From NCBI GenBank assembly GCA_964016885.1, contig OZ024741.1, positions 203,050,001 through 203,114,000 of the forward strand: 64,000 bases of DNA, given 5' to 3'. The translations under genes were made by a program, and so were the position numbers. This document shows positions 38,082 through 39,106 of the stretch, piece after piece. The stretch comes from Eledone cirrhosa (lineage: Eukaryota). Within the stretch, counting starts at the first letter, position 1, and each line of letters begins with the position of its first letter. Under the pieces are notes generated by a model. It was not told the DNA's origin. It saw only the letters and a list, made by a program, of their open reading frames with translations, and did not search any database.

Positions 38082-39106
38082 ATATATTAGTAAAAGGAAA
38101 AGAAAATGCTGACAAATTTTTCCCAGTGAAAAATAGTTTAATTAGGAATAAGTATAAATTAGTAATAAGTATTGGTTAGTATTCAGTTTTAGTTTTAAGT
38201 TTTTACCGGTTGCGCATTTCTAATGCTTTTCAAAAATAAATTTGAGATAGAGCGCTCGTGATGTTTGCTCTTATCTTTAAAATTCCTTCTGCTTTCGAGA
38301 AAGCGGCCGCCTCGTTCGCTCGCCCCGTTTTGTCTTTTCTCTTTTGCTCTCTTTGCGGAGCAGGATGGAGCGGGTCGCTGGGCGGGCGAGGATCGCGAGC
38401 CGTCCGCTGCTGCAGGTGTGCGACGAGCATCGGCAACCTACCCGACGCGTCTTGAAACACGGACCGAGGAGTCCCAGTCGGTTGCGAGTCGTTAGAGCAA
38501 AAGAAATCGAATTTAACGAACTCCGACGGCGAAGTGAAAGCGAGAACGTGACGCGTCGTCGCCGGCGGCGTCAGGGTTGGTTGGAGAAGACGGCATGCGA
38601 TCGGCCGCTTCGGCGGTCGTGTCGCTGTCGTTTTTTTCTTCTTTTTTCCGCGCCGTCGTAGGCGTTTCGAAGCATCGTTCCCGGGTCGGGTGTGCGCGTC
38701 GCGTGGTGGCTTTCGGGCCGTCGGCGCGGCGCGCTCCGACTCAGATGTAGCAGGCGGCCGGGGACCCAAATGATGGCGATCCACGCCCGGTCGGGATGAA
38801 GCCAGAGGAAACTCTGGTGGAAGTCCGAAGCGCCTCTGACGTGCAAATCGATCGTCGGAACCGGGTGTAGGGGCGAAAGACCAATCGAGCCGCCTAGTAG
38901 CTGGTTCCCTCCGATTAGAGCAAACATCACGAGCGCTCTATCTCAAATTTATTTTTGAAAAGCATAAGAAATGCGCAACCGGTAAAAACTTAAAACTAAA
39001 ACTGAATACTAACCAATACTTATTACTAATTTATATTTATTCCTAATTAAACTATTTTTCACTGGGAAAAATTTGTCAGCATTTTCTTTTCCTTTTACTA
39101 ATATAT
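38082..39106 (+). mobile_element. PLE-type inverted-tail cassette carrying a 28S rRNA fragment
   Basis: About 194-bp near-perfect inverted arms (38082-38275 and 38913-39106). The right arm has TTGAAAA GCAT-aagaa-ATGC GCAAC CG GTA and runs into (TA)n. Confidence 0.88.
38280..38914 (+). pseudogene. 28S (LSU) rRNA fragment, D2 3' part to D3 region
   Basis: Conserved LSU blocks 'cgtcttgaaacacggacc.aggagtc', 'gaagccagaggaaactctggtgga', 'ctgacgtgcaaatcg' and 'ggggcgaaagac.aatcga', ending in 'tagtagctggttccctccga'. A GC-rich island with no other rDNA nearby. Confidence 0.95.

What the first reader, a model, noticed from the sequence alone, without database searches (positions are those of the whole stretch)
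38082..39106. 28S rRNA fragment captured between inverted ribozyme-bearing Penelope tails
Seen: about 640 bp of sense-strand 28S rRNA is fused, with a 2-nt 'GA' overlap, to a 194-bp tail. The tail carries a hammerhead-like motif and ends in (TA)n, and an inverted copy of it sits 5' of the rRNA. There is no poly(A), and I saw no L1-type TSD. Other cassettes here have the same architecture with PLE sequence in the middle. Known: PLE insertions often have 5' inverted pseudo-LTR segments and carry minimal HHRs. Inference: a PLE RT primed at the TA tract on its own RNA tail, jumped onto 28S rRNA, then completed the inverted end. That would be PLE-mediated retroposition of a cellular RNA, a route to processed pseudogenes that I do not know to be well described.
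Basis: partly seen in the sequence, partly recalled or inferred. Interest (0 to 1): 0.88.

Follow-up and report, generated by a model that had tools for sequence, protein, structure and literature searches.

The report
Ribosomal RNA trapped in Penelope insertion
A 640-base piece of 28S ribosomal RNA sequence sits between the two mirror-image ends of one Penelope-type jumping-gene insertion, and was likely copied in when the element's reverse transcriptase ran off its own RNA onto a broken rRNA, a route known for LINE-1 but not found in print for Penelope elements.

Summary
The layout is real. Two arms (194 nt, 3 mismatches) flank 637 nt of sense-strand 28S. The arms are the 3' end of an RT + GIY-YIG Penelope-like family (Neptune-type linker). 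'Ribozyme-bearing' fails: there is no CUGANGA or GAAA core. The 28S piece is an older rDNA haplotype, 94% identical to the assembled units, with 19 differences shared with other dispersed fragments. That argues against an assembly chimera, but no read spans a junction. RNA templating is inferred, not shown for this copy. Across 59 dispersed rRNA loci, 12 of 12 one-sided retroelement junctions are sense, two with Penelope-type tails, and a second two-armed 28S cassette exists. Against this, one of three other inserts was copied from DNA or nascent RNA 3.4 kb away. Host capture between Penelope pseudo-LTRs and 28S/L1 chimeras are published; rRNA capture by Penelope was not found. The scan noted the layout before on other DNA, but not rRNA cargo. 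Verdict: new variant of a known kind; interest 0.5.

The parts
38033..38048 (.). Left (AT)8 target microsatellite
   Evidence: sequence
38049..38081 (-). 33-nt Penelope 'tail', present on the left (long) arm only
   Evidence: same extension on long arms genome-wide
38082..38275 (-). Left arm core: 3' end of a Neptune-type Penelope-like family, cut at the family's 5' hotspot; 4-nt ATCT overlap with the 28S piece at 38273-38276
38272..38914 (+). 28S rRNA fragment (643 nt with overlaps; 38276-38912 without), older rDNA haplotype
38591..38632 (+). Expansion-segment hairpin with a UUCG loop whose stem differs from today's rDNA but is predicted to stay paired; marks the older haplotype
38913..39106 (+). 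Right (short) arm, same family, starts at the same hotspot; 2-nt GA overlap with 28S; ends in ATATAT merging with the target
39101..39241 (.). Right (TA)n target microsatellite

Best explanation
This is one insertion of a Neptune-type Penelope-like retrotransposon into a TA microsatellite, in which the enzyme likely primed reverse transcription from both cut DNA strands and the copy on the right likely jumped from the end of the element's RNA onto a broken 28S rRNA. Steps: (1) shown: both arms are the family's 3' end, one long and one short, pointing outward into TA tracts. (2) Inferred from PMC11167929 and the 39-of-41 long+short bias: the GIY-YIG domain cuts both strands and each 3' end starts at one of the two internal start sites that the tail separates. 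(3) Inferred: both cDNAs run off a frequent RNA 5' end at TCAGA-TTAG, where 88 of 143 arms stop. (4) Inferred: the short-arm RT engages a 28S fragment with a 2-nt match and copies about 640 nt. (5) Inferred: the two cDNA ends anneal through 4 nt (ATCT) and repair seals the join. The product is a dead, non-coding pseudogene that preserves the rRNA haplotype of its time.
For: Arm contiguous with PF00078 and PF01541 ORFs (L052). Long+short in 39 of 41 classifiable inverted cassettes (P 4e-10). Two separate cDNAs are shown by cassettes whose arms carry different interiors (L052) or differ at subfamily sites (L117, L119). The piece lies wholly in mature 28S, and the nearest scored rDNA units on this chromosome are 33 Mb or more away. 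Of 59 dispersed rRNA loci, 12 independent one-sided junctions with a 5'-truncated retroelement are all on the rRNA's 3' side and in sense (6 RTE-like, 4 SINE, 2 Penelope-type tails), none opposite (0.5^12 = 2.4e-4). A second two-armed 28S cassette is bounded by another TA-targeted family (L063). Coding-strand inserts in L141 and L142 and the 28S in L063 are also sense to the tail-less arm. Jumping with 0-2 bp of pairing is a documented non-LTR RT activity (10.1101/2021.04.30.442027 passages).
Against: Orientation says nothing for this copy itself, because it has an arm on each side. L130, 1 of 3 other foreign inserts in the same family, came from a single-copy site 3.4 kb away and duplicates its junction, which fits local DNA templating with fold-back. 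Both arms share a rare letter at arm position 36 (46 genome hits, only these two paired), which fits one RNA used twice but equally a DNA-level copy or gene conversion. A 2-nt overlap arises by chance about 16% of the time (arithmetic). No rRNA insert was seen among the 49 other cassettes of this family. The three Penelope-type partner families (L063, L188, L190) have no demonstrated ORF link. Several dispersed fragments span ETS or ITS, so DNA or pre-rRNA sources exist. Template jumping has not been shown for a PLE RT in the papers read. No read or contig spans a junction.
Confidence: 0.62

Rival explanations
1. The Penelope insertion is the same, but the 28S piece was copied from DNA (chromosomal or extrachromosomal rDNA) by a repair polymerase, or by the RT using DNA, to bridge the two cDNA ends through microhomology.
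For: L130 shows that this family's free cDNA ends can copy nearby single-copy sequence and fold back. There is microhomology at both junctions. The shared rare letter in both arms fits DNA-level copying. Fragments spanning ETS or ITS exist. rDNA runs to roughly hundreds of copies (contig depth about 4100 against about 7-9 for single-copy pieces).
Against: No rDNA unit is nearby among those scored. One-sided junctions are 12 of 12 sense, which DNA patching does not predict. L141 and L142 donors have no second copy within the 10 kb fetched.
Confidence: 0.2
2. A 28S fragment was joined to the element's RNA before reverse transcription (RNA ligation, as proposed for U6/L1), and the chimeric RNA was then inserted.
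For: The junction sits at the family's common 5' end. Sense orientation fits ligation as well as switching (PMC13174262 passages). L130's two arms both continue into the same donor end.
Against: Here only one arm continues into the 28S 3' end. No intact ribozyme is present to make a 5'-OH end. An extra G before AGA in 7 of 14 arms cut there hints at a capped end, which would not ligate (confounded by GA repeats).
Confidence: 0.1
3. A 28S pseudogene was already there, and two separate Penelope insertions, or a later rearrangement, trimmed it exactly at both ends.
For: The region is a nest of insertions in TA tracts, and dispersed rDNA fragments are common.
Against: The long+short pairing, both arms at the hotspot, a shared rare letter, no TA tract at either inner junction, and no rDNA outside the arms.
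Confidence: 0.05
4. Assembly or library chimera.
For: No public contig or read spans a junction, and run X1 has zero depth over 38338-38517.
Against: The piece differs from current rDNA at 31 or more positions, 19 of them shared with independent dispersed fragments. The arms differ from each other. The layout is the family's normal one. Contigs drop rare variants, and the raw runs are reduced-representation libraries.
Confidence: 0.03

Closest known systems
Host sequence captured between Penelope pLTRs in Adineta vaga (Arkhipova et al. 2013, PMC3846280; parts 2-3 of 5 read)
   Same: Non-element sequence flanked by pLTRs with no internal element sequence; inverted pLTRs; microhomology 5' junctions; 'a few other cases' of non-coding sequence between solo pLTRs.
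   Different: The cargo there is an intron-retaining NRPS gene between direct pLTRs with an 8-bp TSD. Here it is a mature-rRNA fragment between tail-out long and short ends in a TA tract. rRNA cargo is not mentioned in the parts read.
[quoted passage not shown]
   Same: A 28S fragment joined to the 5' end of a retroelement in one event, mostly sense (83% of 18); template switching, ligation and twin priming are discussed.
   Different: There the partner is L1 with poly(A) and TSD, and 'Penelope' occurs 0 times in the text. Here the partner is an RT + GIY-YIG element with arms on both sides, and the piece (about 640 nt) is longer than their range (50-482 nt).
Inverted 5' pLTR plus one-sided 30-40-bp tail of EN+ Penelope-like elements (PMC8557442 passages; mechanism in PMC11167929, parts 1-2 of 4 read)
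   Same: Inverted layout, 33-nt tail at one end only, TA targeting, CX2-5CxxC linker of Neptune/Nematis type.
   Different: A foreign RNA-derived insert at the centre; no canonical hammerhead in this family's arm.

Membership tests
EN+ Penelope-like element | RT and C-terminal GIY-YIG endonuclease linked to the terminal repeat | tested here: met
   L052: PF00078 32.6 bits (cut-off 29.6) and PF01541 29.6 bits (cut-off 22.6), each leading through the 3' UTR into an arm
EN+ Penelope-like element | Inverted pLTR arrangement with a 30-40-bp tail on one end | tested here: met
   33-nt tail on the left arm; 39 of 41 classifiable cassettes are long+short
EN+ Penelope-like element | AT-rich or (TA)n targets, no poly(A) | tested here: met
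Neptune clade | CX2-5CxxC linker before GIY-YIG | tested here: met
   CDRPNCGIC in the L052 ORF; motif as defined in PMC8557442; also found in Nematis
Neptune clade | RT phylogeny with reference PLEs | not tested
   no reference PLE proteins were on hand
Type I minimal hammerhead ribozyme | CUGANGA and GAAA core around stem II | tested here: not met
   no CTGANGA in the arms; the upstream CTGATCA has C at G8 and lies outside the cassette; no Rfam hammerhead at E<=5
RNA-templated (processed) pseudogene | Copied from RNA rather than DNA | tested here: inconclusive
   indirect: 12 of 12 one-sided junctions sense; this copy's own orientation is uninformative; counter-example L130
L1-type processed pseudogene | poly(A) tail and 7-20-bp TSD | tested here: not met
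   sequence
rDNA-targeting element (R2-like or PLE-X) | Arm inserted at this 28S position within rDNA units | tested here: not met
   0 of 19 rDNA loci carry the arm within 1.5 kb
MITE / DNA transposon | Equal TIRs not linked to a retroelement ORF | tested here: not met
   unequal ends; arm continuous with RT/EN ORFs

The most novel reading that the evidence does not exclude
Penelope-like RTs routinely run off their transcript's 5' end and jump end-to-end onto abundant cellular RNAs during two-strand priming. This would be a poly(A)-independent route to processed pseudogenes, and the rRNA chimeras it and RTE-like LINEs left in this genome would be a datable fossil record of an rDNA haplotype replaced by concerted evolution.
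Probability: 0.45. Interest if true: 0.7.

Novelty: new variant of a known kind. Interest (0 to 1): 0.5.

Why it matters
The second half of the Penelope insertion reaction (how the inverted 5' end forms and what the RT does at the template's end) is still unvalidated, as PMC11167929 states. A foreign, RNA-identifiable insert at the exact meeting point of the long and short cDNAs constrains that step. It gives a direct prediction for the published in vitro system: both strands primed, one start site each, and jumping onto a free RNA 3' end. If general, PLE-rich animal genomes hold a class of retrocopies that poly(A)/TSD-based searches miss. The locus itself is a dead pseudogene with no sign of function.

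Tried and rejected
Rfam at gathering score on the whole window found nothing; the E-value scan on four rDNA loci failed internally. Pfam found no family in the window's own PLE-like ORFs (0 of 3). One search used wrong coordinates and bears on nothing; it was redone. A two-arm pattern with a wide gap was not accepted, so there is no full census of cargo-bearing cassettes. Public runs: the best holders had only 0.26-0.38 of the words. Contigs of four runs, and two reduced-representation raw runs plus two relatives' contigs, gave no record across either junction; this is no evidence either way. The relatives' runs did not cover the variant hairpin, so ancestry of the haplotype was not confirmed from outgroups. 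Idea that the variant is a second, living rDNA class: rejected as far as tested, because the 24-mer has 1 genome hit, high-depth contigs and reads carry the assembled letters, and the 10 kb fetched from the C28 array holds spacer repeats and only the 18S start. SINE pieces in L102 and L098 were dropped from the cargo count as probable later insertions (L102 duplicates arm letters on both sides). A 32-nt insert in L126 was not identified. ORF linkage for the L188 tail family: 1 of 29 loci had an upstream endonuclease, not shown to be contiguous. An RT error at a modified adenine in the GAAAC loop (modification recalled, not looked up) is absent in this copy. Private changes in the 28S piece (12 of 637) against the arms (2 of 421) do not differ clearly (P 0.056; 0.33 without CpG sites). 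Searches for a prior report of Penelope with rRNA chimeras listed only L1 cases and PMC3846280; subscription journals are largely outside the library, and no supplements were read.

Full report
Observation. The inverted pair is at 38082-38275 and 38913-39106, 194 nt and 98% alike, with 637 nt between; the mismatches are at 38152, 38222 and 38272. The middle matches Rfam LSU_rRNA_eukarya on the + strand (180 bits, E 1.6e-46). It also matches 19 assembled rDNA-type loci over its whole length at 92-94%, while those loci are 95-100% alike among themselves. At the right junction two letters (GA) belong to both rRNA and arm. At the left junction an older rDNA haplotype seen in L061 matches from 38272 on, so that mismatch is probably the join, with a 4-nt ATCT overlap. 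The left arm runs 33 nt further (38049-38081) than the right, which merges into (TA)n at 39101-39241. No poly(A) or resolvable TSD is present.

What the arm is. It is a high-copy repeat: 2356 candidates (40 scored) and 484 exact hits of one 23-mer against 0 for the control. In L052 a short arm and a long arm face outward around a 281-aa RT ORF piece (PF00078, 32.6 bits) and a 233-aa GIY-YIG ORF piece (PF01541, 29.6 bits); each leads through the family's 3' UTR into an arm. The endonuclease has a CX4CxxC linker, described for Neptune and Nematis PLEs (PMC8557442 passages); no tree was built. None of the 19 rDNA loci carries the arm. It is therefore neither a DNA-transposon TIR nor an rDNA-targeted insertion.

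Family anatomy. I fetched 80 loci covering 91 of the 100 listed (of 484) pattern hits: all of contig C1 and the start of C2. Of these, 49 are inverted cassettes and 31 single arms. Among the 49, 39 have one long and one short end, 2 are long+long, 0 short+short and 8 unclear (P 4e-10 against an even mix). This is the known inverted-pLTR-plus-one-sided-tail layout (PMC8557442). PMC11167929 (parts 1-2 of 4 read) shows in vitro that a PLE protein cuts and extends both strands, is predicted to be a dimer, and starts at two internal sites separated by the tail. Cassettes whose arms carry different interiors (L052) or differ at subfamily sites (L117, L119) need two cDNAs. Arms stop at a sharp 5' hotspot: 88 of 143 arms in 105 loci end within a few bases of TCAGA-TTAG (the sample is conditioned on holding that motif). 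The site matches an initiator consensus (recalled), and D. virilis Penelope has an internal promoter (PMC2377424 passages), so a transcription start is plausible but untested. Both arms of this cassette start at the hotspot.

Ribozyme claim. Neither strand of the cassette holds CTGANGA; the same scan finds four proper motifs in other cassettes of the window (55729+, 25429-, 8213-, 7746-). Longer copies have CTGATCA just before the arm (30 of 44), which is the G8C change reported to abolish cleavage (PMC11167929), and no GAAA follows the stem. Rfam finds no hammerhead at E<=5. PLE hammerheads vary (PMC4209133 passages), so a remnant is possible, but the cassette is not ribozyme-bearing.

The rRNA piece. 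Of 31 positions that differ from the majority of the 19 units, 19 are shared as a linked set with independent dispersed fragments (L053, L054, L060, L061, L070), 7 are shared with none, and 5 recur only in one or two decayed fragments. The variant expansion-segment hairpin is predicted to keep a UUCG-capped stem in both versions. Its exact 24-mer occurs once in the genome. High-depth contigs and raw reads carry the assembled letters. The piece is thus best read as an older rDNA haplotype captured before the arrays were homogenised (inference), which also argues against a library chimera. No record spans either junction, so the junctions rest on the assembly.

RNA or DNA template. An insert between inverted arms is sense to one of them, so this copy cannot decide. 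I examined 59 loci with rRNA matches, taken from four 640-nt searches in which only 40 of 79, 180, 141 and 151 candidates were scored; 4 are parts of units. None shows the opposite one-sided arrangement; I set aside L210 (weak hit 23 nt away), L215 (TA tract between) and L182 (self-hit). Leaving out L063, which has arms on both sides, gives 12 of 12 (2.4e-4; 13 of 13 gave 1.2e-4). Six of these have a microsatellite directly at the rRNA's 5' end. So rRNA is used as an RT template in this germline. L063 is a 127-nt 28S piece between tail-out ends of a hammerhead-bearing tandem family; L188 and L190 are 18S pieces joined to single TA-ended tails. For these three families no ORF link was shown. 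RTE and SINE labels rest on recalled features (C-terminal zinc-finger text, TATG tail).

Other inserts in the same family. Three of the 49 cassettes hold foreign inserts over 100 nt, none of them rRNA. L141 holds 210 nt of another Neptune-type ORF (1067 candidates, 95-98% alike) and L142 holds 193 nt of a mariner-like transposase (label recalled). Both have the coding strand sense to the short arm, and neither has a second copy in the 10 kb fetched. L130 goes against my reading: its 284 nt come from a site 3.4 kb away (97%, 3 candidates in the genome), and about 13 nt of the junction are duplicated in inverted form. This fits local DNA templating with fold-back, or a nascent transcript. Both arms of the window cassette share a rare T at arm position 36 (46 genome hits, only these two paired); in 47 other pairs rare letters are shared 21 times and unshared 190 times. 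One RNA used twice, or DNA-level copying, would each explain it.

Mechanism and odds. Two-strand priming with an RT jump onto rRNA: 0.62. DNA-templated patch: 0.2. RNA ligation before RT: 0.1. Separate insertions: 0.05. Artefact: 0.03. Jumping with 0-2 bp of pairing is shown for the Bombyx R2 RT, on RNA and on DNA templates (10.1101/2021.04.30.442027 passages); I found no such test for a PLE RT.

Comparison with the literature. PMC3846280 (parts 2-3 of 5) already reports an intron-retaining host gene and a few non-coding sequences captured between Penelope pLTRs. PMC13174262 (passages) reports 18 28S/L1 chimeras, 83% sense. Searches for the Penelope-rRNA combination (listings only, except where stated) found none. 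Passages of bioRxiv 10.64898/2026.07.22.740005 and PMC13282606 do not describe it. Earlier notes of this scan describe the long+short layout repeatedly in this genome but no rRNA cargo. The organism is probably a cephalopod (inference from recall, not tested).

Verdict. A real, non-functional chimeric insertion and a new variant of a known kind. It is of moderate interest because it ties a testable step of the unresolved Penelope mechanism to a genomic product.

Noticed in passing
L060, L061, L067/L072, L068, L070, L183; element copy at window 5906-6480: Six independent 28S or 18S fragments are fused in sense to the 5'-truncated 3' end of one RTE-like LINE, five at nearly the same point about 575 nt from its end, inside TATG or TA repeats. 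Some carry the older rDNA haplotype (L060, L061, L070) and some the current one (L067, L068), so they bracket an rDNA turnover.
   Followed up: partly
L064, L071, L197, L207: rRNA or 5'-spacer fragments directly joined in sense to a truncated copy of the common SINE; L197 is external spacer, which suggests pre-rRNA as template.
   Followed up: partly
L063:1611-2198: 127 nt of 28S between tail-out ends of a roughly 430-nt hammerhead-bearing tandem repeat (retrozyme-like); a second two-armed rRNA cassette.
   Followed up: partly
L188:2052-2448; L190:2019-2286 (rRNA-sense coordinates): One-armed chimeras: (AT)n, 18S fragment, truncated TA-ended tail, (TA)n; ORF link not shown.
   Followed up: partly
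L130:3204-3487 and L176:8225-8498: Cassette insert copied from single-copy sequence 3.4 kb away, with about 13 nt of the junction duplicated in inverted form.
   Followed up: yes
L175 about 3810-4985: An rDNA unit on C4 has a roughly 1.2-kb insert in 28S at what I recall as the R2 target site; possibly a short non-autonomous R2-type element.
   Followed up: no
G000:C28:124.7-125.2 Mb (L179): Array with a 29-41-kb period holding rDNA spacer repeats and the first part of 18S followed by short repeats; 13 copies listed.
   Followed up: partly
L060 (28S start): This chimera's rRNA begins right at the GAAAC loop where I recall a methylated adenine that stops reverse transcriptases; recalled, not checked.
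   Followed up: no
window 52099-55416: Inverted cassette around a frameshifted PLE-like ORF (52220-54354) of another family; no Pfam match, tblastn E 8e-22 to another GIY-YIG-like ORF.
   Followed up: partly
window 55729 (+), 25429 (-), 8213 (-), 7746 (-): Canonical minimal hammerhead motifs in other TA-bounded cassettes.
   Followed up: no
L009, L017, L021, L030 and others: The commonest short product of this family is a near-perfect palindrome centred on a single T or A at the hotspot, which fits annealing of two cDNA ends with one T-T mismatch.
   Followed up: partly
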